Positions 2,812 through 60,878 of a stretch of DNA of 64,000 bases are shown here, in pieces. Position 1 is the stretch's first letter; each line of letters starts with the position of its first letter. The notes under the pieces were generated by a model. The model saw nothing but the letters and a program-made list of their open reading frames with translations, did no database searches and had not been told where the DNA came from. The stretch comes from an uncultured Acidimicrobiia bacterium (lineage in GTDB: Bacteria > Acidobacteriota > Terriglobia > Versatilivoradales > Versatilivoraceae). The translations under genes and the position numbers were made by a program. Where the stretch lies: assembly GCA_963786955.1 (NCBI GenBank), contig CAWBAT010000004.1, forward strand, positions 512,001 through 576,000, given 5' to 3'.

Positions 2812-3621
2812 TTGTTCCCTAAACTTTTCGAATATTCCTGGCTTGTCATTCATACCTATGGATTTCTCCTCGCCTTGGGTTTCGTCTCAGGGCTGTATGT
2901 GAGCGCCCGAGCGGCCCAGCGGGAAGGGATAAACCCTGCTAAGGTTTATGATCTCGGATTGTATATCGCCATCAGTTCCCTCGTGGGGGCCAAGCTGCTG
3001 CTAATCATCACCGAGTATGCATACTACTCGGAAAATCCCGCCGAAATTTTTTCTCTGGCAACCTTGAGGTCGGGAGGCGTTTATTATGGGGGATTCCTGG
3101 TAGCGGCCACGGTAGGAATCAGCCTCGTGCGATATCAAAAGCTTCCCGTCTGGAAAATGACCGACATTTTTTCTCCGGGAATTGCGTTGGGACAATCGAT
3201 TGGCAGGCTTGGATGTTTTGCCGCCGGATGCTGCTATGGTCGGCCAACCCTATCGTTGTTTGGAGTCACCTTCAAAAACCCTTACAGCCAAGACACTGTC
3301 GGCGTACCATTGAATATTCCTCTCCATCCTGCACAGCTTTACGAAGCAGCCACGAATCTGGTAATTTTTTTTCTTCTTTGGACAACCCTGAAAAAGAAGA
3401 GATTTGATGGTCAGGTTTTCATTCTCTATCTCGTGTATTACTCAACCAGTCGATTTGTCATCGAATTTTTCCGCGGCGACCCGGAAAGAGGCTTCCTGTT
3501 TAATGGGCTACTTTCTACTTCTCAATTTATCAGCCTGGTCTTGCTGGTTTGTGCGGCCGTCCTGTATGTCGCATTGAAACGGCTGCAACTTCCGAACCAG
3601 GTTCCGGCTCGATCGAAGTGA
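2812..3621 (+). CDS. lgt: Prolipoprotein diacylglyceryl transferase
   Basis: GRLGCF, HPAQLYE and RFVIEFFR motifs; multi-TM; TTG start. Confidence 0.95.
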   Translation: MFPKLFEYSWLVIHTYGFLLALGFVSGLYVSARAAQREGINPAKVYDLGLYIAISSLVGAKLLLIITEYAYYSENPAEIFSLATLRSGGVYYGGFLVAATVGISLVRYQKLPVWKMTDIFSPGIALGQSIGRLGCFAAGCCYGRPTLSLFGVTFKNPYSQDTVGVPLNIPLHPAQLYEAATNLVIFFLLWTTLKKKRFDGQVFILYLVYYSTSRFVIEFFRGDPERGFLFNGLLSTSQFISLVLLVCAAVLYVALKRLQLPNQVPARSK

Positions 3622-4610
3622 CCCCCTCCATCGAATTACGCACTTTCATTGCAGAAGAACCCGATCATCATCACCGTTTGGATCATTTCCTTTGCAGCCA
3701 ACTGCCGGAACGTAGTCGTTCGCAGATCCAGAAATGGATTGATGAGGGATGTGTCCTCGTCGACGGAATCACGGTTAAGCGGAGTTATAAGATTCGCGGC
3801 AGCGAAAAAATCACCGTTAATATCCCTTCCCCGACCCCGCCGGCTGGCTTTGCTGAAGACATTCCTCTCAGTATCCTCTATGAAGACGCTGACCTGGCTA
3901 TCATCAACAAACCGGCTGGGATGGTCGTCCATGTGGGAGCCGGCGTCAGGCAAGGGACTCTAGTGAATGCTCTGCTCAGCCACTTCTCCGAGCTTTCAGA
4001 GAGCGGGGGGCATGAACGCCCCGGAATTGTTCATCGTCTGGACAAACAAACTTCGGGGCTACTCGTCGTGGCCAAAAACAATTTGAGCCATGTGAACCTT
4101 TCCAAACAGTTTCAATTCCGGTCTGTAAAGAAGCACTATTGGGCCTTGGTTCATGGACTCTTCGAAAAACCGCGTGGAGAAATCAAAACCCCAATAGGGA
4201 GAGATGCTCGCAATCGAGTCAAGATGACGACCCGATCAAATCGAGGACGAGAAGCTTATACGTCCTTTGAGGTTGTCGAAGAGCTGGTCAATTTCTCTCT
4301 CGTTCGTCTCCATATTCGAACAGGCAGAACTCATCAGATCCGGGTCCACTTGGCGTCGGTTAGCCATCCGGTTGTGGGAGACACCCTCTATGGCGCTCCT
4401 TCCCGAATCCAATTACCCGGGACAAACCAAGGGGTTCTAACCCTGAACAGAAATTTTCTGCATGCCTACTCGCTTGAGTTCGCGCATCCCCGGAGCGGAG
4501 AGTGGCTTTCGTTTAGCTGCGAGCTTCCCCCTGAATTGTCTCAGATCCTCGCCAAGTTGCGAGAGGCCCACTTGGAAAAAAAGAACCCGTTAGAAGGGAT
4601 TGAACGTTAA
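3618..4610 (+). CDS. rluD: RluA/RluD-family 23S rRNA pseudouridine synthase
   Basis: N-terminal S4 domain (RLD), NKPAG, GIVHRLDKQTSG and GRTHQIRVH motifs. GTG overlaps the lgt stop. Confidence 0.92.
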   Translation: MTPSIELRTFIAEEPDHHHRLDHFLCSQLPERSRSQIQKWIDEGCVLVDGITVKRSYKIRGSEKITVNIPSPTPPAGFAEDIPLSILYEDADLAIINKPAGMVVHVGAGVRQGTLVNALLSHFSELSESGGHERPGIVHRLDKQTSGLLVVAKNNLSHVNLSKQFQFRSVKKHYWALVHGLFEKPRGEIKTPIGRDARNRVKMTTRSNRGREAYTSFEVVEELVNFSLVRLHIRTGRTHQIRVHLASVSHPVVGDTLYGAPSRIQLPGTNQGVLTLNRNFLHAYSLEFAHPRSGEWLSFSCELPPELSQILAKLREAHLEKKNPLEGIER

Positions 4611-4675
4611 CTAGGCTGAAGCGGGTATCAGAGTTGATTTTTGAATCTGCAGCTTTATGTAACTGAAGAGGAGAA

Positions 4676-4965
4676 AAGCCGCGGACCCAAATATCGGGTC
4701 CGCGCTACACTCGGACAAAACCGCAGCGCAGTGACCTGCCTTTAGAACCTAATATTCGTTAAAATCAGAGCTCCATTAGGAGCGGCCCTTTGGCGTTTGT
4801 GCTGCGTCGAATGAACCCACAGCCGAAAACGGCGTCGCGGAGCTTGGCCCTCCAGACCAGAAGCGGTGGGAATCTCATAAAAAAACTCAAGGTCTTATAA
4901 CAGCGTATTTTCTGCGGCCCCGAAAAGCCCACGACGAATTCAAAATCAATTCGTCGTGGCTACAA
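4676..4965. repeat. REP-like palindromes (GTAG/CTAC-ended)
   Basis: aaagccgcggaccc..gggtccgcgctacactcgg recurs in reverse at ~41790-41815 and ~42126-42175. A second hairpin, cacgacgaatt..aattcgtcgtggctac, lies at ~4929-4963. Confidence 0.75.
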
Positions 4966-4993
4966 ATCTTGTGCCTTCGGCAAGGGGACTGGG

Positions 4994-5022
4994 TTGACGG
5001 GTCTCTGTCATCCGCCTATAAT
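4994..5022 (+). promoter_or_regulatory. Sigma70 promoter of the VWA gene
   Basis: TTGACG-17 nt-TATAAT, about 50 nt upstream of ATG 5074. Confidence 0.75.
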
Positions 5023-5073
5023 CCAGGCATCCCTCATCATCAGCGGGGAAAGAGAAAGGGTAGAGGCAGAGGC

Positions 5074-6033
5074 ATGAAATCAAATTGTTTATTGAAGTTC
5101 CTGGCTTTGATGGCACTCATCATTTTTCTTTCCAAGGGAGAATGGCCTTTTCAGTTTCTCTCAAAGGTCGATGCCGCAGAGGATAACCCCTCTGGTAACA
5201 AAGAGATTGCCATTGATGTGGACCTTGTCAACTTTCCCTTATCTGCTTTAGACAAGAAAGGTGTTCCCGTCAAAGATCTTCGCCAGGACGAGATCAAGGT
5301 TTTTGAGGATAACGAACTCCAACGGATCACGAATTTCTCTCATGACCCAGATGCTCCCCTTGCGATTGCCCTGGTTATTGATACGAGCACCAGCTCCCGG
5401 GTCAAGTTTAAGGTTGAACAGGATGCGGCCATTGACTTTGCTCAAACGGCCGTTCGCCGCAAGAAGGATAGTTGCCTTCTGATGAGCTTTGATTCCACGA
5501 TCGATTTATTGCAGCCGTTCACGGACGATCCGGACCTTTTGACACGCGCCATCAAACGGCTAAAGACCGGCGGTGGAACGAAGATGTTCGATGCAATTCA
5601 CAAGGCCTGCCAAGAATACTTGGTGAAGGAGCGGGGTAAACGTCGCGTCCTGATCTTAATCAGCGACGGGGACGACAACATGAGCTATGAAACCCTCGAA
5701 TCGACTTTACAGGTCATCTTGCAAACCGATGTTTCCGTCTTCTCAATCAGTACTAATTCCAGCGGATTTTTCGGGATGGAGAATCCCAAACTAGACAAAC
5801 TTTTCAAACGGTTTGCAGAAGAATCTGGAGGGCGAGCCTTCTTCCCAAAAAAGATCGAAGACATGGCCTACAACTTCCGTGACATCACTGAGGAACTGAG
5901 AGACCAATATTCCCTCGCCTACCACACAACCAATAAAACCAAATCTGGGGCGTTCCGAAGCATCAAAGTTGAGTCAACCCGAAAGGATGTGAAATTGAAA
6001 TATCGGAAGGGCTATTACGCGCCTCGTGGGTAA
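5074..6033 (+). CDS. Acidobacterial VWFA-related secreted VWA domain protein
   Basis: N-terminal hydrophobic segment, VDLVN..D.KG.PV.DL motif, MIDAS DTSTS, ISDGDD, C-terminal RKGYYAP. Confidence 0.88.
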   Translation: MKSNCLLKFLALMALIIFLSKGEWPFQFLSKVDAAEDNPSGNKEIAIDVDLVNFPLSALDKKGVPVKDLRQDEIKVFEDNELQRITNFSHDPDAPLAIALVIDTSTSSRVKFKVEQDAAIDFAQTAVRRKKDSCLLMSFDSTIDLLQPFTDDPDLLTRAIKRLKTGGGTKMFDAIHKACQEYLVKERGKRRVLILISDGDDNMSYETLESTLQVILQTDVSVFSISTNSSGFFGMENPKLDKLFKRFAEESGGRAFFPKKIEDMAYNFRDITEELRDQYSLAYHTTNKTKSGAFRSIKVESTRKDVKLKYRKGYYAPRG

Positions 6034-23823: not shown

Positions 23824-23963
23824 TCTGTAAGAAAAATTTCCTGACACCAAAGTCGATGGGAGTACCGAGTTACGACCCGAGCAAGTAGGACGCTTGCGTC
23901 ACAGGATTATGCTCTGGCTCTCTCTGACCTGTACCAACGTCAAAAGACCATTCCTGCAACTTA

Positions 23964-24090
23964 GTACTGCTTTTCATAAATACGGTGACGTTAACGCCGG
24001 GTCGGTGACCCGGCCTACAACTTTGTAGGCCGCGTGACCCCACGCGGCGCCTATCCTAAGATACGTCACCGCAATTACGATTAGCAGTAC
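23964..24090. mobile_element. 127-bp MITE with TTA target duplication containing a REP doublet
   Basis: Imperfect TIRs gtactgcttttcataaatacggtgacgt / acgtcaccgcaattacgattagcagtac. TTA on both sides (23961-23963, 24091-24093). Confidence 0.65.
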
Positions 24091-27424: not shown

Positions 27425-27610
27425 GTGTCGTAGCTGGCTCCGCTGGGGCCAGCCGGGGTCAACGTCCCAGGCTACAACTAATTTTTGCAACATCGCACGA
27501 CAGGCGTGGACGCCTGTCGCCACACAAGAGCCTCCGGGCCTTAGGATTGCACAGTAAAGATCTCCGCGATAAATCGTAGGGACTCGCGAAGACCTTATCC
27601 CTTCCAATCG
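27425..27610. repeat. REP-like palindrome cluster
   Basis: gtagctggct..ggccagcc..cccaggctacaac, and gacaggcgtggacgcctgtcgccacac (related to 56440-56467). Confidence 0.6.
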
Positions 27611-41664: not shown

Positions 41665-42175
41665 CTGAAGTAGCAACAGGCCTCCTGGCCTGTTGGCCGG
41701 GGCCAGCGGCCCCGGCTACAGCTGATCCTTGCGACATTGCACAAAAGGCTTGGACGCTTGTTGCCAGGGGTAATCGGTCGCCACGACGCAGCTTTGCCCG
41801 AGTGTAGCGCGGACCTGGATTCCCCCTTTGAAGGGGGTGCCGCTTTGCGGCAGGGGATGTAAAGGGTCCGCGTCTTGTCTTCTCATTCTTGAATAGGCCG
41901 CAGAGTCAGAATACGACTCTGCGGCCTTCTGAGGAAAGTGTTTAACGCTCCTCCCTTCCCCCAAAGCCGCGGAGTTAAACCGCAACTCCGCGCTACCTGC
42001 TCTGTCACATGTTCATCGAGCGTGCGCGGGAGTGCCCGCTCCGCCTAGCCCTCCAAACAGGTCGCTCCTGACGGAGCTGCGATTCTTGACGATTGCTCAG
42101 TTCTAGAGACAGCCCGCCGCGACGCGGCTTTGCGCGAGTGTAGCGCGGACCCGCTTTCCGGGTTTGCGGCCTTTC
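41665..42175. repeat. Mixed REP-like palindrome cluster
   Basis: gtagcaacaggcctcctggcctgt..ggggccagcggccccggctac; gtgtagcgcggacc (x2); gagcgtgcgcgggagtgcccgctcc; gctcctgacggagc. Confidence 0.78.
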
Positions 42176-48721: not shown

Positions 48722-48825
48722 CAGGTCTCGGGCTCCGTGCAATTCGGATCTGCAAACCCCGCCAGGTTCGGAAGAAAGCAACGGTAGTGGACACCCGGAT
48801 GTGCCGCGGAACAACCCGGGACCTG
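48722..48825 (+). ncRNA. ffs: Signal recognition particle 4.5S RNA
   Basis: Long hairpin closed by caggtctcggg/cccgggacctg. Core CAGGTTC-GGAA-GAAAGCAAC matches SRP helix 8. Canonical position upstream of dnaX. Confidence 0.92.
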
Positions 48826-52503: not shown

Positions 52504-55500
52504 TTAATACTGGATTTTCAACCCGAACTGAATTTCACGCGGAGGATTGCTCTGGCCAGCCTCGTGACCGAAGTTCACACCGAGTTGGCCGCCACCGATG
52601 ATATTCCCATACATGTCCCCGCCCTGGTCGAAGCTGAAAAGGACACGGTTGAAGGCATTCAGAAAGTCTACCCGGAATTCGATACTCACACGATCATTAA
52701 GGTTCATTTGTTTCTTGATGGAGAAATCCTCCTGGTAGAATGGTAATTGGCGGATATCAGCATCCGTGACCGGAGCGTTGCCAAAAGTATACGGTGCTGG
52801 GTCCGCCCAGGCATTGCTGTTAAACCGGGAACCCGCCGCTCCTATGCCATTGGGATCCCAGGTGCCATTAAGGATGGCTGCCGACTTCTTCTCCACACCG
52901 GGTACGACACTGGCCCGAGTGGTGAAAGAGTTATCCGACATGTACGGGTAGAGGGAGTTGCCTGACGAAATGATCATTTGCGGGGCGCCGCTCCGGTACT
53001 GCTGGATTCCGGCGACGCTCCAGCCTCCCAGCACCTTGCCCGCCGCACCCCCTTTGTTTACCCATTTCTTACCCGGACCAAAGGGCAATTCGTACTGATA
53101 GGAAAACACCAAATTATTCGGATAATCATTGAGGCTCAGCGCTTTTTCTCCCGCGGCATTATAGAAGTCCTGGGTGAATCCCGAGAACAGATTGTACAGG
53201 CTTCCTGCATTGGTAAGGGTCTTTGACCAGGTATACGCGACAAGAAAGGTTAACCCATTAGTTAGATTCTTCCGAGCCGATATTTGCAGGGCATTATAGG
53301 TTGACATGCCGGTCGTTTCTCCATAATCCCGCATCTGTGCATTGCCATCTAGTGTGTCAACTTGGTACTGCGGAAACGGGCGCAAAGCCTGGCCCAGCTG
53401 GGCATTACTCCCCCAGAGAGATTCGAACCCCGTAAAGGGAGCATGCCTGCCTGTCCCGGGGTCCACCGGCATAGCCTGCACAACCGGGAGGGCCTGAATG
53501 GTAGGGTCAGCAATATTCATGAAGAGCTGGGCCCCGTAGCCAATGTACGCCGTCGGGACCACGTTGCTATTCCTCAGACGGCTAGACAAGTTCGTTCCCT
53601 TGGTCCAGACATAACCGACATCGAGGAGAATTTGCCCGGGAAGCTGCCGCTGGATACCGAAAGCAGCGTTTTGCATTTGCGGAGCCCTTTCATCCCCTGG
53701 CCACGCCCCAAACGAGGTAGGGCCGCCCCCATTCATGTAGTTCTGACTGATAAACGGCACACTCTGGTAATACTCGGCCGGCCAACCGGTTTCAAGCTTC
53801 ATATGAACATCTGTAGATCCCAGGGGACTGCACGACGTTGCTCCAGCAAATCCCGCGTAATAAGTTGTGCCGCAATTATTTGAGGCGCTGTATCCCAACT
53901 GGCTCCCGGGATCACCAAAGGAGCGTGCGAGGGAACGTGCGCCTCCTGCCGCTGTATACAGAATCCCGTAACCGCCTCGGAGGACCGTCTTGGCATTCAG
54001 GCTATAGGCGAACCCGAAACGCGGGCCCCACCCATGCTCGTTAGATGCTCCCGTACGCCGCTCGGGTGTTGCGTAGGCGAGTACACCTTTAATGCCAAGA
54101 TCGGTATTCATGATGAGTGGGTCAAACCAGGTTTTGATGTTGTGTGCATCCACCGTAGGCTTGAACAGGTCATAACGCAGACCCAGGTTCAACGTGAGTT
54201 TGGAGGAGAGTTTGAAATCGTCTTGAATGTACAGTCCATACCGTGCCATCCGATCTGCATTCTCGGAAGCCGTGATAGTCGCCGTACCTTGGGTGGGGAG
54301 CCCCAAGAGGAAACCAGCCACTCCCACTCCTGTACAAACGTCCCCCGGATTGCATGCGCCACTAGCATAGAATTTCTGGTCAAGCAGCGCGGTTGTTCCA
54401 GATTGATAAGTGTTAGAACTGGATTGGTTGGCAGTGCTCCAGCCGTTATTTTGCAGCTTGATGTAACTAAACCCTCCCTTGATCGTATGCCGGCCTTTGA
54501 TCCAGGTCACACTGTCGTCAAAGGTAAAATTGTTATTCGCACTATAGCCTTGGCCGCCTGTCCCGTAAGTCCCTAATCCACCGATGCCTGATACTGGAAA
54601 CGTTGACCCTGCACCTGTCTGGGGCACGCCACTATAGCCGAGAATCGCCGGCCAACCGGTGCCGGCCTGAGAGAAGTAATCCAACCGGCTCCGGTTAAAC
54701 CCAAACGCCCAGTGGTTGATGAGATTCTGCCTGATAAAATAATCGTGGCTGAGCCGAACAATGCGATAGCCATTAGTGCTATCAGAGCCATCGCTAATGG
54801 CGCCCGGCCATCTGGAACCCGTTGGGACGTATTGGCTTTTCCAAATAAACGACGCCATTTATCCGGTTTTTGTCCGAGAACACCTGGTCGAGTTTGACCC
54901 CATAATCGTTGATGCTATCTCGGTTCAGATACGTCCCGAGCCAATTGAGTTGGTAGCCAAAATTGCAGCTTGGACAAGCCGGTGGGTCTACAAAATACGA
55001 AAACATCCTCGCGGCCACAGGATCAATCCGGTTTTTCGGAATGATATTGGCCTGGCCTGGAATCGGCAAGCCGGTCTTAGGATTAAAGCCAAAGCCGTCG
55101 CGCAGAATGGCTGCGGCTCCACTCGTGTTCACGAGCCCAGTGGCCGGGTCTGCTGCTCCCGCCGGGACGATTCGAGTCGTTGCCGGGTCATAGATCTCAG
55201 ACGAATACACCGGCCGCCCTAGTGCATCGGTACCGATAGGGCCGCCGAGAATATTGCTTAAGTCCCCGCCCTTCATAGCCGCGGTAGGGAGAGTATCCTT
55301 GGAGTTAGCCCCGAGTTCTTTGATGTTGCGGAAGCCGTTATACCAACCGTAGAAGAAAGTCTTATCTTTGTGAATGGGCCCGCCGATCGTGGCCCCGAAT
55401 TCGTTTTGATTGTTTTTCGGGGTCGTTGCAGCGTAAAAACCCCGGGCATCCAAGACCGTGTTGCGGAAAAACTCATACACCACGCCATGAAACCCGTTGC

Positions 55501-56273
55501 TCCCGCTCTTGAGTGTAAAGCTGGTTATTCCCAGCCCCGTCTGGCCGAATTCTGCCGGGGGAAGGAGCGTCATGACCTTGAACTCCCCGACCACGTCCGG
55601 TGGGAACGGGAGCTGACTGAAGTCTCCGGACGCCCATAACCCTGGCCGATTACGGCGCCATCGAGATGCCATTCAATGCTAGCACTCTGACTGCCATTGA
55701 CGGTGGTATTCAACTGCCGGGCTGGACCGTTGTGGCTTATTTCACGGTCCCTCTGCTGGTAACACCAGGAGAGAGGTGATCAGGGAGGCCGGATTGCGCA
55801 CCTCCTGCATGCCCACCAGGGGCAGATTAACGACATCATGTTCCTGAAATAATGGTTCCCCGGTCGGACGTCGCGGACTCAACCATTAACACCTCAGAAG
55901 AGACTGTAATGGACTCAGTGACCAGTCCCACTTCCAGGCGGATATCAACGTGGGCGGTTTGGCCAAGCTCTACAGTGATATCACTTCCGACGTATTGCTT
56001 AAAGCCTGCTTTCTGGGCAGTCAAAAGGTACTCGCCCACCCGCAAGAGCGGAAACGTAAAGCCCCCGTTTCCCCCGGTCGTCACTTTAGAGCTCGTGTTC
56101 GTCGCGACGTGAGTGGCGGTAACGCCCGCCCCTACAATTACAGCTCCCGACGAGTCGGTCACCGTTCCCGTGATCGTTCCGCGATCGCTTTGTGCGTTTA
56201 GCCTGGGAACTGAAACGCCAAGAGTGAGGAATAGGCCAGTAACGAAAATCAGGGCCCGACGTCTCTTCTTCAT
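52504..56273 (-). CDS. TonB-dependent receptor (Oar-like, CarboxypepD_reg N-terminus), split by at least 5 frameshifts
   Basis: Signal peptide plus GTITGTVTDSSGAVI; KSGSNGFHG..YEFFRN; YIQDDFK..LTLNLGLRYD; C-terminal PREIQFGLKIQY. Frame changes at ~55840, ~55775, ~55740, ~55632 and ~54850. Confidence 0.88.
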
Positions 56274-56439: not shown

Positions 56440-56812
56440 CGACAGGCCAGGAGGCCTGTCGCCACACAAAAAACTGTAGCTACAGGCCTCCTGGCCTGTT
56501 GTCCGGGGCCAACGGCCCCGGCTACGTGCGCCTGAAAGCGTGTTTGATCGGAGAGGTGGAAGTCCTCTTCAGGTATACGCTCTCCGGCCTGTAACCAACT
56601 GTAACTGCGTCGCCGAGAGACGGGGTGGGAGATCCGCCTGTCCGGTTTGGAGGGGGGAGGGGCCGAAATGAATCGGCTCTTCCTACCCCTATAACAACGT
56701 CTCGATCGTGCATCTTCGATACTGCTGTAGCCGGGTCCTTGACCCTGGCCATGAATTGCCGGATCAGCGATCCCGGCTACAACTGAGCACCAGAGCGGGA
56801 TATTTATGGATT
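56440..56812. repeat. REP-like cluster hosting the intron remnant
   Basis: gacaggccaggaggcctgtc; gtagctacaggcctcctggcctgt..ccggggccaacggccccggctac; gtagccggg..ggatcagcgatcccggctac. Confidence 0.8.
56526..56692 (+). mobile_element. Internally deleted group II intron (5' end + 3' DV half + DVI), no ORF
   Basis: Starts GTGCG. Ends gggagatccgcctgtccggtttggaggggggaggggccga..tcggctcttcctAcccctAT with the bulged A 8 nt from the end. Confidence 0.8.
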
Positions 56813-57699: not shown

Positions 57700-58620
57700 A
57701 TCCCCCTCACTCGATCCGCCGTCCGGGTGGAAGCTTATCAAGCTTCCACCCCTTCCCCGATGGGGGCGAGGGATTCAAATCATTATTCTCCACCAGGCTG
57801 ATGAACCCCCAACAACCAAAAGAAGAAGACCGACAGAACTTCAGAAATTGTATTCGGATCAACTGTGCCCTGCGCTGGTCAGAAGTTTTTGGAGCACGAA
57901 CTCATCAAGGTGGGACGTCTGGCTCCGGACTTGTCGATTGTCCTGCAAAAGAAAAGGGGTTCCATCAAAAGGGCTGTCAGCCAATGAGTCTCAATTGATT
58001 ATATTCCTCAGTTGCTTTAGTTGCTTTTTTTCATTGGAGACAACACAAGCTAAATCCCGCGACCGTTTCTTGTATGTAGTACCGCCTTCAGGCGGACGGT
58101 TATTGGGTACACTAAGGCGCCGGCTGAAGCCGGGACTACAAACGTCTTGGGAGGGGGTGTCCTAATGTGGGAGCCGGTGTCCTCACCGGCGATTCATTCT
58201 CGAGGACCTTTGTTTCACCTGCCTGTAGAAACTTGCAGCACTTTTCATGTAGTGTTCACGCCTCAAACTACAGTTTTCAGCTCCCCTCGCCCTTGCGCGG
58301 GAGAGACGACCCTCTCGACAATCGGCTTCCCTCTCCCCAACACGGGAGAGCGGAGCCGAAGATCGCTTTGGGCATGCTCTCCCGAATTGGGGAAAGAGGA
58401 GCCGAAAACCTGAAAGCGTGCGCGGAGCGCCCGCTCCACCACACATAGCAAAACCAACTTCGGGATTCGGGATAAATGGCCGAACGGGATGTAGCGAACG
58501 CTCGCCGCAGCGTTCCCTACTGCCGAGGCGTGCAAGATGCCCGCGCTCCCAGGTTATGCTGCGGGCGTCCTCGCCTGCTTTCGGACGGCCTGAAAGGCTG
58601 CCGCTCCGCCGCAGTCCGAG
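57700..58620. repeat. Mixed REP-like cluster
   Basis: ccctc..gggggcgagggg type; gtagtaccgccttcaggcgg..cggctgaagccgggactac (58076-58139); ccctctcccc..gggagag; gcgtgcgcggagcgcccgctccacc; gtagcgaacgct..agcgttccctac. Confidence 0.78.
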
Positions 58621-58625
58621 TTGCC

Positions 58626-60800
58626 TTATTTCGCGGCCGTCATGGCTGGCAAAAAGTTCTCCAGAGCCCAGATTTGATCCGAATCTGCCGCCACGACTGT
58701 GAAGAATATGCTCCGGCCGTCGGGGTGCATTTGTGGACCTTTGATACGGGCGTTCATCGATAAGCCGACCCTTTCCGCTTCTCCTCCGTCCACGGGAACA
58801 CGCCAGATGGACTGTTGCCCCGTGATCGTGAACAGAATGTAACGATGATCCGGCGTCCATGCCAGGGTGTTGTATGCATTAAACTCCCCTTCTGGGTAAC
58901 GGTAGAGGACGCGCGGCTCACCGCCGGCCGCGTTTGTAACAAAGATCTCCTGCCCTTTTGAAGAGGTGGACACGTAGGCAATCTGCTTTCCGTCGGGTGA
59001 AACGGCCGGGCTCGCAAAGAGAGTATCTTGGGGGAAGAATGGGACCGACTCTCTGAGTATAGCGGTCTGGCGGGTGTCTAGATCGAAACGCGCCAATTGC
59101 TGGGAATTTCCGCCCGCCTGGAAGAAAACGGATTTCCCATCCGGCGATAACTTGAATCCAGTGATCAAGTCTTTCCTTTCCCCTCCCACTTCTTCGGCTT
59201 TGCCGGTAGTCAGATCCACACGATACAGGAAGGCCCCTTGCCGTTGGTTCTCGCTTCCAGGCACTAGGACCGAACGGCCATCGGGCAGCCAACCCGGCCC
59301 ATTGAAATACAGGGAGTTGATCTCCAGATTCAGGGGAAACACACGCTCCTGACGACTGCTCAGATCCCGAACCACCAACACTGTGTCCGGGCGATCGGAA
59401 TAGTAGGCAAGCTGTTTGCCGTCGGGCGACAAGGACGCTCCCCAATTCGAGTTGACATACTTTTCTGTCACGACTTGGGGTGTTCCGGACACCTTCCCAT
59501 CATTGCCCAAAGCAGCGCGATATACGTTCCGCCGGTTTCTTCCGCGAACGGAATAATATAGCGTTCCGGTAGGCGTCATCGTCAACGGCACAATGGTCCC
59601 GATATCGCTCTTGACGAGCTCGGCCTCTCCGGCAGCCTTTCCGTCCTTGACCGCTATGGACCATAGAGAGGGGGCCGCGGTGCGGTCGCTGACGAACAGA
59701 ACCCGCGAACCGTCTGGGGACCATACGGTTGAGTAATCATTGGCCGGATGTTGCACGATAGCGGTCTCCTGGCTTCCGTCTGCAGCCAGAACGAAGATAT
59801 CCCTGGCCGTCCCCGCACCATCACCCGCAGGGGTGTCGTAGGCAATGTAGCGTCCATCGGGCGAGATACTCGCGCCAATCTGCGCCCAGCTGAGTGACTT
59901 GAGCTGCCGAATGGAGCTATCCTGTACCGAAAGCATAGCAATCTGCCAGGTGCCGTTTTCTAGCGATCGCGTAACCAGCAGGTTCCGGCCATCCGGTGTC
60001 CAGCCCCTTACAAACAGATAGTTGGGGCTGCGATGGACGATTCGTGGAGCCGCATTCCCATCCATCGGGACGATCCGAACCTGGAACTCCCATTCAGGAA
60101 GTTTGACAAAAAGGTAGGCCACCTGACGGCCGTCTGGGGAAATGACCGATCCGTCTGCATATCCGTCTGCGGGCCGGGTCAGCACACGCTTTGTGCCTGC
60201 TGCAAGGTTAAGGACCGCAACCCCCCCACTCGAATCCGTTAAGCTGACCCAACTGCCATCCGGCGATACCGTGCCATTGATTATCTCTCCAGAGTAAACC
60301 TGCCGCATCGAGATCCTGTTCCCCGATACTCCCGGTGAGCGCAAGGCCGCCAGGCGTACGCGTGCTTGAGCGACAATTTCCTGCTGGTCAGAAAAGTCAC
60401 GCACAACACGTTCGTAAGCCCGGCGCGCATCTGCGACGCCGAGTTTTTCGTAACACCCACCCATCTGTAACAAGGCCTTGGCAGTAATCAATCGGTTGCC
60501 ACTCGCGTTGGTTATGATCTTCTGGTACTGCTCAATTGCGCCTTTCAGGTCCCCGTCTACTAACTCCAGGTGAATGGCGGCCTTGAGCTGCACTTCGGCT
60601 GAGTCCTTGGTCTGTCCTGCTGCGAGTGACGCCAGCCACAACGCGGACAATGCAATAAATAGCTGTGCCCGCTTGCAGGTGGAGCGGGCGCTCCGCGCAC
60701 GCTTCTCAAACGTACGACGGGGGACGGTAGTCCCACGCGCGCATTCCCCCTGGGACATCAAGGGGGCCAGCCCCTGGCCGGATAGATTAAGCTTGTTCAT
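58626..60800 (-). CDS. Secreted TPR + PD40/TolB-like beta-propeller protein
   Basis: RBS GGAGGG before ATG 60800. Signal h-region, TPR (ELVDGDL..AIEQY), many (W/I/L)SPDG repeats, C-terminal IWALENFLP. Confidence 0.88.
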   Translation of the reverse strand: MNKLNLSGQGLAPLMSQGECARGTTVPRRTFEKRARSARSTCKRAQLFIALSALWLASLAAGQTKDSAEVQLKAAIHLELVDGDLKGAIEQYQKIITNASGNRLITAKALLQMGGCYEKLGVADARRAYERVVRDFSDQQEIVAQARVRLAALRSPGVSGNRISMRQVYSGEIINGTVSPDGSWVSLTDSSGGVAVLNLAAGTKRVLTRPADGYADGSVISPDGRQVAYLFVKLPEWEFQVRIVPMDGNAAPRIVHRSPNYLFVRGWTPDGRNLLVTRSLENGTWQIAMLSVQDSSIRQLKSLSWAQIGASISPDGRYIAYDTPAGDGAGTARDIFVLAADGSQETAIVQHPANDYSTVWSPDGSRVLFVSDRTAAPSLWSIAVKDGKAAGEAELVKSDIGTIVPLTMTPTGTLYYSVRGRNRRNVYRAALGNDGKVSGTPQVVTEKYVNSNWGASLSPDGKQLAYYSDRPDTVLVVRDLSSRQERVFPLNLEINSLYFNGPGWLPDGRSVLVPGSENQRQGAFLYRVDLTTGKAEEVGGERKDLITGFKLSPDGKSVFFQAGGNSQQLARFDLDTRQTAILRESVPFFPQDTLFASPAVSPDGKQIAYVSTSSKGQEIFVTNAAGGEPRVLYRYPEGEFNAYNTLAWTPDHRYILFTITGQQSIWRVPVDGGEAERVGLSMNARIKGPQMHPDGRSIFFTVVAADSDQIWALENFLPAMTAAK

Positions 60801-60816
60801 CGTTCGTCCCTCCATG

Positions 60817-60878
60817 CGATCAGGATAGGGAGCTAATGTTTGCGGCAAATCACGGAGCTGTCATGATTTTGTAATATT
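60817..60878 (-). promoter_or_regulatory. Conserved promoter with OmpR/PhoB-type tandem boxes (copy 2)
   Basis: aaatcacggagctgtcatgattttgtaatatt, near-identical to 57601-57632; directly upstream of the PD40 gene. Confidence 0.72.

What the first reader, a model, noticed from the sequence alone, without database searches (positions are those of the whole stretch)
56476..56695. Miniature group II intron inserted precisely at the CTAC end of a REP palindrome
Seen: a REP (gtagctacaggcctcctggcctgt..ccggggccaacggccccggctac) is followed with no spacer by GTGCG (56526), the group II 5' splice consensus. 167 nt later come the 3' strand of domain V, a complete domain VI (gggggagggg-ccga..tcgg-ctcttcct-A-cccc) and terminal AT (56692), then aac. 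Removing the insert restores ggctac|aac, the same REP end seen uninterrupted at ~27470-27478 and 56775-56783. The intron-free sister REP is at 41670-41719. Established: a branch A 8 nt from the end is IIB-like, and IIC introns home next to hairpins (terminators, attC). Inference: this intron lineage may use the abundant GTAG/CTAC REPs as homing sites, so one selfish element would parasitise another. The copy lacks the RT ORF and the 5' strand of DV with the catalytic triad, apparently lost by deletion at a gggaga microhomology between DI and DV. It is therefore a relic or a non-autonomous passenger.
Basis: partly seen in the sequence, partly recalled or inferred. Interest (0 to 1): 0.82.

Follow-up and report, generated by a model that had tools for sequence, protein, structure and literature searches.

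The report
Dead mini-intron beside a REP hairpin
A 167-base leftover of a self-splicing group II intron sits exactly at the end of a repeated DNA hairpin (REP), and its relatives show that this intron family homes to such hairpins by a 5-base pairing rule.

Summary
Window 56526-56692 starts GTGCG directly after the CTAC end of a REP doublet (56476-56525). It ends in a domain VI hairpin plus TAT.

Rfam alone does not call it: Intron_gpII scores 20.6 bits against a cut-off of 40. Homology settles it. The element is the first 104 nt (97% identity) joined to the last ~66-78 nt (94%) of a 761-nt ORF-less group II intron elsewhere in the same genome (C5:1038212-1038972). That copy's DV/DVI scores 55.4 bits. 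About 594 nt were lost at a G-run microhomology, including EBS1, DII-DIV and the 5' strand of DV. The mini is therefore catalytically dead.

It is a single copy. None of 30 other genomes of the family holds it.

RT-bearing (~1.87-1.90 kb) and ORF-less relatives occur mainly in Acidobacteriota MAGs. Their 5' flanks hold a GC-rich hairpin in 67 of 77 cases. A 5-nt EBS1 loop covaries with the 5 nt before the intron, which is IIC-like homing.

In this genome both copies sit in GTAG/CTAC-tagged REP dimers that have many unoccupied sisters. The REP-targeting idea is supported as one case of a hairpin-plus-IBS1 rule. The "passenger" idea is not supported. This is a new variant of a known kind, of moderate interest.

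The parts
56442..56465 (+). Upstream REP-type hairpin ACAGGCC-AGGA-GGCCTGT + CGCCAC. It is a degenerate member of the ACAGGCC..GGCCTGT..CTAC REP family and part of the local REP cluster.
   Evidence: One search lists G000:C4:568442-568465(+) with 1 mismatch. The family has 39 matches in G000 and 14 in G002, with 0 in the controls.
56476..56525 (+). REP doublet: GTAGC + hairpin ACAGGCC/GGCCTGT + TGT + hairpin CCGGGGCC/GGCCCCGG + CTAC. This is the homing-site hairpin.
   Evidence: Searches show the sister copy at 41670-41719 with 3 mismatches. One search gave 63 blastn-short hits in the genome. One search found the same doublet type about 450 nt from a Y1 transposase gene at C9:203666.
56521..56525 (+). 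Inferred IBS1, GCTAC: the last stem base plus the CTAC tag.
   Evidence: In relatives the 5 nt before the intron pair with the EBS1 loop. The relative L014 carries EBS1 GTAGC, the exact complement. The mini's own EBS1 is deleted, so the pairing is inferred.
56526..56629 (+). Intron 5' segment, GTGCG... It corresponds to nt 1-104 of the 761-nt parent, i.e. the first hairpins of domain I.
   Evidence: 97% identity to G000:C5:1038869-1038972(-).
56627..56631 (+). Deletion junction in a G-run, GGG(AG). About 594 nt of the parent are missing here: the rest of DI including EBS1, DII, DIII, the DIV remnant and the 5' strand of DV with the AGC triad.
   Evidence: Sequence comparison of the mini with the parent. 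The BLAST pieces overlap at query positions 90-104.
56630..56648 (+). Loop and 3' strand of domain V only, (G)AGATCCGCCTGTCCGGTTT.
   Evidence: Alignment to the DV of the parent, GAGCCGGATGCGGGAGATCCGCCTGTCCGGTTC. Rfam aligns a pseudo-DV with mispairs at 20.6 bits.
56649..56692 (+). Complete domain VI with bulged A at 56685, and the 3' end ...CCCCTAT.
   Evidence: From DVI to the 3' end it is identical to the parent copy. The MFE fold keeps this hairpin.
56693..56695 (+). Start of the 3' exon, aac. Together with the 5' side it restores the REP end GGCTAC|AAC.
   Evidence: The uninterrupted form ggctacaac is read at 27470-27478 and 56775-56783. CTACA is the commonest hairpin tail in the genome, with 250 cases.
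56726..56783 (+). Second, unoccupied REP doublet, GTAGCCGGG...CCCGGCTAC, in the same intergenic cluster.
41670..41719 (+). Intron-free sister of the occupied REP doublet.
23996..24060 (+). Unoccupied sister of the REP dimer that holds the full 761-nt intron on contig C5, ...CCCGGCCTA|CAACTTTGTAGGCC...
   Evidence: There are 42 unoccupied sisters in the genome. The C5 flanks are identical in register, and there is no target duplication.

Best explanation
The 167-nt element is an inactive, one-off relic of a retrohoming event.

Inferred origin. An ORF-less, IIC-like group II intron of about 761 nt reverse-spliced into DNA immediately 3' of a REP stem-loop. It was presumably supplied with a reverse transcriptase in trans. 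The RNP read the hairpin, and a 5-nt EBS1 loop paired with the REP tail GCTAC (EBS1 inferred to be GTAGC).

Inferred decay. Later, about 594 internal nucleotides were lost at a GGG(AG) microhomology between a domain I hairpin and domain V. That loss removed EBS1, DII-DIV and the catalytic 5' strand of DV. The relic can therefore neither splice nor move.

What is shown:
- the homology to the parent intron;
- the deletion boundaries;
- the single-copy status;
- the hairpin rule and the EBS1-IBS1 covariation in relatives;
- the REP nature of the site.

What is inferred:
- the retrohoming mechanism, by analogy with class C introns;
- the EBS1 of the lost progenitor;
- the supply of RT in trans.
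For: Homology:
- the 5' 104 nt are 97% identical, and the 3' 78-79 nt 94% identical, to the ends of a 761-nt element at G000:C5:1038212-1038972.
- that element's DV/DVI scores 55.4 bits against a cut-off of 40.
- the mini's 3' part resembles ORF-less copies (94-97%) more than RT-bearing copies (75-81%).
- the ORF-less form is collinear with RT-bearing introns of 1867-1896 nt, minus about 1.1-1.2 kb of ORF.

Intron-encoded protein of relatives:
- it has RVT_1 + GIIM and no endonuclease domain, and matches TIGR04416 at 396 bits.
- its best solved relatives are IIC reverse transcriptases (7uim 224 bits, 6ar1 218 bits).

Targeting rule:
- 67 of 77 assessable 5' flanks carry a hairpin ending within 9 nt of the intron. 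The same rule finds one at 340 of 5000 random genome positions.
- 23 of 37 non-duplicate copies have 5/5 Watson-Crick EBS1-IBS1 pairs. The mean is 4.32, against 1.95 for shuffled pairings (maximum 2.73 in 2000). Sliding the site by 1-3 nt gives 0 full matches. There are 19 distinct EBS1 words.

REP nature of the sites:
- 438 of 1569 GC-rich perfect hairpins in the genome carry a GTAG head or a CTAC tail.
- an unoccupied sister of the mini's REP lies in the window.
- there are 42 unoccupied sisters of the C5 site.
- an RT-bearing relative in G002 sits after a CTAC REP of a family with 39 and 14 copies.

Inactivity:
- the DV 5' strand is absent.
- no contiguous copy in 30 other genomes.
- no exact junction match in metagenome contigs.
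Against: - The mini alone fails Rfam's threshold.
- Its own EBS1 is gone, so pairing with GCTAC cannot be read from it. The nearest full copy in the same genome has EBS1 TAGGC, not GTAGC. The relative that does carry GTAGC (L014) itself sits at GCTCC, a 4/5 match.
- 14 of 37 copies pair at fewer than 5 positions, and 6 of them at 3 or fewer.
- 10 of 77 flanks have no hairpin by the strict rule. By eye most of these have bulged or long-loop hairpins.
- No RT of the cognate lineage was found in this genome (93% complete). The only GIIM hits belong to a different IIC intron with 38% amino-acid identity.
- The intron lies on the strand opposite to all larger neighbouring ORFs, so sense transcription is not evident.
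- The deletion could not be checked against reads. No public run holds as much as half of the stretch's sampled words; the best share was 0.21.
Confidence: 0.85

Rival explanations
1. The mini is a still-mobilisable, non-autonomous 'miniature intron' (MITE- or SINE-like passenger) that keeps only the ends needed for recognition by a reverse transcriptase supplied in trans.
For: Both termini (GTGCG... and DVI...TAT) are intact and differ from the parent at only 4 of 167 positions. The RNA folds more stably than shuffles, z -3.4. ORF-less relatives do appear to move.
Against: There is one copy in the genome. No contiguous copy was found in 30 other genomes of the family, and there was no junction match in metagenome contigs. 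EBS1 and the catalytic DV strand are deleted. Reverse splicing, the known route of group II mobility, is therefore impossible for this RNA.
Confidence: 0.04
2. The adjacency to the REP is coincidental or reversed: a REP or REPIN was placed next to a pre-existing intron fragment, or the intron landed in an intergenic region that merely happens to be full of REPs.
For: REPs are very abundant here: 438 tagged hairpins, and CTAC-tailed sides make up 406 of 3138. A hairpin-seeking element would therefore meet them often. The REP itself is not interrupted, only flanked.
Against: The boundary is exact to the base, restoring GGCTAC|AAC as in uninterrupted sisters. The second copy in the genome sits inside another REP dimer that has 42 empty sisters. 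The family-wide EBS1-IBS1 covariation puts the recognised 5 nt at the hairpin tail.
Confidence: 0.05
3. The internal deletion is an assembly artefact, for example a collapse between the two ends of a full-length intron, and the real locus holds a 761-nt or longer intron.
For: The genome is a 9-contig assembly at 93% completeness, and no reads of the source could be laid. In one search one 151-nt contig of run X1 bridges the same intron/3'-exon junction (34 and 40 nt on either side). It continues upstream into a DV variant with the intact-type GCGGGAG.
Against: The junction has only 3-5 nt of homology, too short for an assembler to collapse on. The mini carries private substitutions on the DI side of the junction (C>A and G>A), and these fit a separately evolving copy. 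The X1 contig's DV differs at several positions from the mini while its DVI and exon are nearly identical. This suggests a k-mer chimera or a different strain.
Confidence: 0.05

Closest known systems
Bacterial class C (IIC) group II introns, e.g. B.h.I1, GsI-IIC, E.r. IIC
   Same: - They insert just downstream of a DNA stem-loop and use a short EBS1-IBS1 pairing.
- The IEP has RT + X/maturase and no endonuclease domain.
- The total size is about 1.9 kb.
- The closest solved RTs are IIC RTs.

The literature describes IIC introns after terminators 'or other inverted repeats' (PMC1702495, abstract from the search listing). It also describes DNA-hairpin recognition with short EBS-IBS pairings (PMC12584367, passages; PMC4424553, passages).
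   Different: - The target stem-loops here are GTAG/CTAC-tagged REP dimers and other repeated palindromes without a T-run, not terminators or attC.
- DV has the AGC triad.
- DI-DIV reach no Rfam D1D4 model: 21-25 bits against cut-offs of 32-35. The genome's own bona fide IIC intron scores 131 bits.
- The IEP is only 38% identical to that IIC IEP.
- Membership in class C proper, as against the neighbouring terminator-seeking IEP types g6/U1/U2 (PMC8919778, passages), is unresolved.
ORF-less bacterial group II introns served by an IEP in trans (cyanobacterial examples; review PMC4424553)
   Same: The 761-nt parent lacks the RT ORF but keeps a conserved ribozyme and a DIVa-like stem. 53 of 215 predicted pairs show compensatory change across 7 copies. 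It occurs at different sites with different EBS1 words.
   Different: - The review states that bacterial ORF-less introns are rare and nearly always share a genome with a closely related RT-bearing intron (passages read). In this genome no cognate RT was found.
- The window's element is a further deletion of that form and is not a working intron.
Mobile elements that target REPs (ISPpu9, ISPpu10, IS1397 and others; Tobes & Pareja 2006, PMC1525189)
   Same: One selfish element uses another repeated element as its landing site. That paper's table lists a P. putida KT2440 group II intron with 2 of 9 copies REP-associated (table passage read).
   Different: - Those are mostly DNA transposons. The intron case there is a minority of copies, and the passage I read gave no pairing rule.
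- Here the intron's guide (EBS1) is complementary to the REP tag itself and covaries with it across relatives.
GTAG-tagged REPs / REPINs with RAYT transposases (PMC3733652; PMC3116915 from the search listing only)
   Same: The target is a GC-rich stem-loop with a terminal GTAG tag. It occurs in head-to-head dimers and in hundreds of copies. Y1 transposase genes are present, and one is flanked by the same doublet.
   Different: This describes the host site, not the element. The passages read list GTAG REPs in Proteobacteria, Cyanobacteria, Chloroflexi and PVC, and mention Acidobacteria only for TIR-flanked transposases.

Membership tests
Group II intron (ribozyme) | 5' end GUGYG | tested here: met
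   GTGCG at 56526. It is conserved in 30 of the 32 relatives with a 5' end; the other two start GCGCG.
Group II intron (ribozyme) | Domain V: 34-nt helix with catalytic triad, 2-nt bulge and GNRA loop | tested here: not met
   The mini keeps only the loop and 3' strand. Rfam scores it 20.6 bits against a cut-off of 40. The parent copy meets this feature at 55.4 bits.
Group II intron (ribozyme) | Domain VI with a bulged branch A 7-8 nt from the 3' end, and a 3' terminal AY | tested here: met
   The bulged A is at 56685 and the element ends ...CCCCTAT at 56692.
Group II intron (ribozyme) | Complete DI-DIV scaffold with exon-binding sites | tested here: not met
   Only nt 1-104 of DI remain. The EBS1 loop, at about nt 176-180 of the parent (columns 177-181 of alignment A1), is deleted.
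Class C / IIC introns | Insertion immediately downstream of a DNA stem-loop | tested here: met
   The window has an 8-bp stem + CTAC. 67 of 77 relatives' flanks carry a hairpin, against 340 of 5000 random positions.
Class C / IIC introns | Short EBS1-IBS1 pairing as the main sequence determinant | tested here: met
   A 5-nt loop covaries with the site: 23 of 37 copies pair at 5/5, against a shuffle mean of 2.1 such copies of 37. For the mini itself this is inferred only.
Class C / IIC introns | No EBS2-IBS2 pairing | not tested
   I did not search DI for a second exon-binding loop. The hairpin occupies the place where IBS2 would lie.
Class C / IIC introns | IEP without endonuclease domain | tested here: met
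   P0001 (from relative L045) has RVT_1 + GIIM only, in a 456-aa open frame.
Class C / IIC introns | IEP falls in phylogenetic class C | tested here: inconclusive
   The best solved matches are IIC RTs at 218-224 bits, against 161 for IIB and 143 for IIA. The genome's true IIC IEP scores 499 bits to GsI-IIC. No reference set with class labels was at hand.
Class C / IIC introns | DI-DIV match to described IIC-type covariance models | tested here: not met
   D1D4-1 and D1D4-3 score only 21-25 bits, below their cut-offs, in the parent and in RT-bearing relatives.
GTAG-tagged REP (host site) | GC-rich stem-loop with a terminal GTAG/CTAC tag, in high copy number and forming dimers | tested here: met
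   438 of 1569 hairpins are tagged. The pattern gave 39 copies with 0 in the controls. Sisters were found.
GTAG-tagged REP (host site) | Association with a RAYT-type Y1 transposase | tested here: inconclusive
   The genome has 21 Y1_Tnp matches over the cut-off. The one at C9:203666, which has 1 in-frame TGA, lies about 450 nt from the same doublet type. No functional link was tested.
Miniature non-autonomous mobile element | Several copies of the same short form at different sites | tested here: not met
   One copy in the genome, none in 30 related genomes, and none in the metagenome scan.

The most novel reading that the evidence does not exclude
The relic marks a lineage of ORF-less, IIC-like introns in Acidobacteriota that behaves as a long-lived non-autonomous retroelement.

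- It keeps a conserved ribozyme and an IEP-binding stem.
- It borrows a reverse transcriptase, possibly even from a distantly related IIC intron, as would be needed in this genome.
- It retargets among RAYT-type REP/REPIN families by changing a 5-nt EBS1 so that it mimics each REP's GTAG-type tag.

On this reading one selfish repeat system is tracked by another (hyperparasitism). The 95-96% identity of the 761-nt form between different genera would then point to horizontal spread, since a flanking coding stretch is only 82% identical within the genus.
Probability: 0.35. Interest if true: 0.65.

Novelty: new variant of a known kind. Interest (0 to 1): 0.5.

Why it matters
The relic itself has no function. 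It led, however, to an intron family not captured by Rfam's DI-DIV models, and the family's targeting rule can be read straight from genomes: a hairpin plus a covarying 5-nt guide.

Three points follow.
- Hairpin-seeking group II introns can specialise on REP/REPIN repeats, not only on terminators and attC sites. This links two selfish systems.
- Reductive decay is visible in two steps: RT-bearing, then ORF-less (761 nt), then a 167-nt stump.
- The ORF-less form gives a testable case of trans-mobilised group II introns in bacteria, where such forms are considered rare.

Short, programmable, structure-dependent DNA targeting is also of practical interest for intron-based gene targeting.

Tried and rejected
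1. Rfam at gathering thresholds on the whole window gave only the SRP RNA. The weak miRNA-type hits on the REP hairpins are palindrome artefacts, and I discarded them.

2. I asked whether the genome's own RT-bearing intron at the start of C5 is the parent. It is not. There is no nucleotide similarity, the IEP is only 38% identical, and it sits after a classic hairpin + T-rich tail.

3. I looked for recurrence of the 167-nt form. It was not found in 30 other genomes of the family, nor as an exact 21-mer junction in metagenome contigs. Exact matching would miss mutated copies.

4. I asked whether the ORF-less copies form one clade. The DI-DIII tree of 17 copies interleaves ORF-less and RT-bearing rows. 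Parsimony needs 4 changes, and starred branches force at least 2. L056 was long-branched and stayed in the tree. I could not decide between repeated ORF loss and recombination between co-resident copies. The shared DIV remnant favours a common origin.

5. Public runs: none of the 24 listed holds as much as half of the stretch's sampled words (best share 0.21). In the four runs laid, no contig covered 56634-56657. This is no evidence either way. I name no habitat.

6. Orthologous locus: G002 shares the flank 55000-56184 at 82% identity, and then synteny ends. It carries an RT-bearing intron about 1 kb further on, on the other strand and at a different hairpin. No empty orthologous site could be shown.

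7. Literature. Searches found only one mention of an intron-REP association, the table in PMC1525189. I found no paper describing EBS1 matched to REP tags, or ORF-less IIC-like lineages in Acidobacteriota. The library lacks most subscription papers. PMC2525955 (Simon 2008, on ORF-less introns) is not held. Supplements are closed, so additional files of PMC1525189 and PMC8919778 that may list insertion sites were not seen. Robart 2007 and Chung 2022 are recalled, not read.

8. No complex prediction, structure or atlas job was run, because none bore on the question.

Full report
**What is in the window.**
- A REP doublet occupies 56476-56525: GTAGC, hairpin ACAGGCC/GGCCTGT, TGT, hairpin CCGGGGCC/GGCCCCGG, CTAC.
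- GTGCG follows at 56526 with no spacer.
- 167 nt later the element ends ...GGGGCCGAAATGAATCGGCTCTTCCTACCCCTAT at 56692. The bulged A at 56685 is 8th from the end.
- The next bases are aac.
- An intron-free sister of the doublet lies at 41670-41719 (3 mismatches in 50; none in 100 shuffles).
- The uninterrupted end ggctacaac is read at 27470-27478 and 56775-56783.
- All larger ORFs nearby are on the minus strand. The element is intergenic and antisense to its neighbours.

**Is it a group II intron?**
Rfam at curated thresholds says nothing here. A permissive local scan gives Intron_gpII 20.6 bits, E 0.12, against a cut-off of 40, with a mispaired pseudo-DV.

The decisive evidence is homology within the same genome.
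- The first 104 nt are 97% identical to the start of a 761-nt element at G000:C5:1038212-1038972.
- The last 78-79 nt are 94% identical to the end of that element.
- That element's DV/DVI scores 55.4 bits. It has weak, correctly ordered DI-DIV matches.

Comparing the three sequences places the junction in a G-run.
- The parent's DI reads ..GGGGTGGGGAGC..
- The parent's DV reads ..ATGCGGGAGATCC..
- The mini reads ..GGGGTGGGAGATCC..

About 594 nt are missing: most of DI including EBS1, DII, DIII, the DIV remnant and the 5' strand of DV with the AGC triad. Outside the junction the mini differs from the parent at 4 positions. One of them breaks a DI pair.

The 3' part resembles ORF-less copies (94-97%) more than RT-bearing copies (75-81%). 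The mini is therefore a second-step deletion of an already ORF-less intron.

**The family.**
- A search of 61 related genomes found matches in 27. Many of these are only generic DV similarity.
- With the mini as query, 12 of 31 genomes of the family match at E <= 1e-10, counting G000 itself.
- Full copies come in two forms. RT-bearing introns are 1867-1896 nt; one further RT-bearing copy, in a genome of another family, is 1836 nt. ORF-less introns are 708-763 nt.
- The IEP of a relative (P0001) has RVT_1 + GIIM and no endonuclease domain. It matches TIGR04416. It is closest among solved structures to IIC reverse transcriptases (224 and 218 bits; IIB 161; IIA 143).
- DI-DIV of the family reach no Rfam D1D4 model.
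- An exact-pattern scan of species-representative genomes returned 85 stretches, of which 80 became loci. By my reading of the record titles, about 64 of the 80 are Acidobacteriota MAGs: Terriglobia, Blastocatellia, Pyrinomonadaceae and the like.

**The targeting rule.**
- By eye, the 32 copies with a 5' end all follow a GC-rich hairpin plus a short tail.
- A strict rule was applied to the 77 assessable flanks. These overlap in part with the genomes. The rule finds a hairpin ending within 9 nt of the intron in 67, against 340 of 5000 random positions of G000.
- The alignment of DI shows a loop, GAGCCTGC-NNNNN-A, complementary to the 5 nt before the intron.
- Over 37 non-duplicate copies in which my motif found the loop, 23 pair at 5/5, 8 at 4/5 and 6 at 3 or fewer. 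The mean is 4.32, against 1.95 for shuffled pairings (maximum 2.73 in 2000). Sliding the site by 1-3 nt gives no full match. There are 19 different EBS1 words.
- Forty loci were not scored. Three had flanks that were too short. The rest either ran off a contig or escaped my motif.

This is the behaviour described for class C introns: DNA hairpin plus short EBS-IBS pairing (PMC12584367 and PMC4424553, passages; PMC1702495, abstract).

**Are the hairpins REPs?**
In this genome they are.
- Of 1569 perfect GC-rich hairpins, 438 carry a GTAG head or CTAC tail. CTACN directly follows 406 of 3138 hairpin sides.
- The window's doublet type recurs about 450 nt from a Y1 transposase gene at C9:203666.
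- The full 761-nt copy on C5 sits in the centre of another REP dimer...CCCGGCCTA|CAACTTTGTAGGCC.... This dimer has 42 unoccupied sisters, one of them in the window at about 23996-24060. The comparison shows a clean insertion without duplication. Its EBS1, TAGGC, matches GCCTA exactly.
- In G002 an RT-bearing copy with EBS1 GTAGG follows ACAGGCCGGGAGGCCTGTCCCTAC. That REP family has 39 matches in G000 and 14 in G002, with none in the controls.
- The mini's IBS1, GCTAC, is the complement of the EBS1 GTAGC carried by the 96%-identical ORF-less copy L014.
- Elsewhere the tails differ (CCCTA, CTCCA, CGCTC, GGGAT, GACAG, GTCTC). Several targets are visibly repeated palindromes within one genome.

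REP use is thus real, but it is one case of a more general hairpin-plus-guide rule.

**The ORF-less lineage.**
- Seven ORF-less copies from seven genomes align over their whole length.
- RNAalifold predicts 215 pairs, and 53 of them have compensatory changes. These include pairs in the DIV remnant and a DIVa-like stem.
- The copies sit at different sites with seven different EBS1 words.
- The copies in G000, G002 and G011 are 95-96% identical. A coding flank is only 82% identical between G000 and G002.
- The DI-DIII tree interleaves ORF-less and RT-bearing copies. Single origin with recombination, or repeated ORF loss, remains open.
- G000 has no cognate RT. Its only GIIM hits belong to a bona fide IIC intron at the start of C5: 499 bits to GsI-IIC, and 38% identity to P0001.
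- With 42 empty sister sites and one occupied site, the intron is not spreading in this genome.

**Verdict.**
The element is a dead, private stump.
- What the stump points to is an IIC-like intron family whose guide matches REP tags, with a conserved ORF-less branch. That is a new variant of a known kind.
- Literature searches turned up only a table entry for a REP-associated group II intron in P. putida (PMC1525189). The library is incomplete and supplements were closed.

Noticed in passing
window 23960-24090: This is a palindromic repeat of about 130 nt. It has outer inverted arms (cttagtactgc... / ...gcagtac) and, at its centre, the REP dimer CCGGGTCGGTGACCCGGCCTACAACTTTGTAGGCCGCGTGACCCCACGCGGCGCCTA. 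The dimer has 42 near-identical copies in the genome, which looks REPIN- or MITE-like. The full-length ORF-less intron on contig C5 sits in one such copy.
   Followed up: partly
window 58416-58438 (+) and 60680-60702 (-): The same 23-mer, GCGTGCGCGGAGCGCCCGCTCCA, occurs twice in inverted orientation about 2.2 kb apart, around the ORF 58626-60848(-). The same hairpin + TCCA motif is the landing site of RT-bearing introns in relatives (L045, L046, L088, L102). Here both copies are unoccupied.
   Followed up: no
window 48726-48824: Bacterial small SRP RNA, 69.5 bits.
   Followed up: no
G000:C5:1-5100 (L011, L012): A bona fide IIC intron lies here. D1D4-3 scores 131 bits, and the IEP scores 499 bits to GsI-IIC. 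It follows a hairpin + TTCTTCTT. Segments are partly duplicated at the contig start (1-608 = 2238-2845; 2837-3840 = 4079-5082), which may be nested or tandem copies or an assembly effect.
   Followed up: partly
G000, genome-wide (e.g. C7:70146, C2:96449, C8:30963, C6:101177): There are 21 Y1_Tnp matches over the cut-off. Several are flanked on both sides by their own distinct hairpin types, for example aacccctcgatgaatcgaggggtta. This suggests many separate REP-transposase pairs in one genome.
   Followed up: partly
run X1, contigs laid on window 56522-56609 and 56659-56732: In one contig an intron 5' end follows directly on the DVI end (...CTCCCTACCC+CTAC) of another intron. This would be a head-to-tail tandem in which DVI + CCTAC acts as hairpin + IBS1. 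Another 151-nt contig bridges the same intron/3'-exon junction as in the window but continues into a different, intact-type DV. These are single low-depth contigs and may be chimeric.
   Followed up: no
G002:C11:353018-357075 (L166, L043): The orthologous flank of window 55000-56184 (82% identity) is followed, about 1 kb on, by an RT-bearing family member. It lies on the opposite strand at a different hairpin (tail CGCTC, EBS1 GAGCG). This is an independent hit in the same neighbourhood.
   Followed up: partly
loci L118, L139, L147, L158: In four MAG contigs (titles: Terriglobia) the intron follows a repeated motif of the type gtcatYctgagcgRagcgaagRatct. This is a long-loop palindrome that my strict hairpin rule missed, and it looks like another repeat family used as a target.
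   Followed up: no
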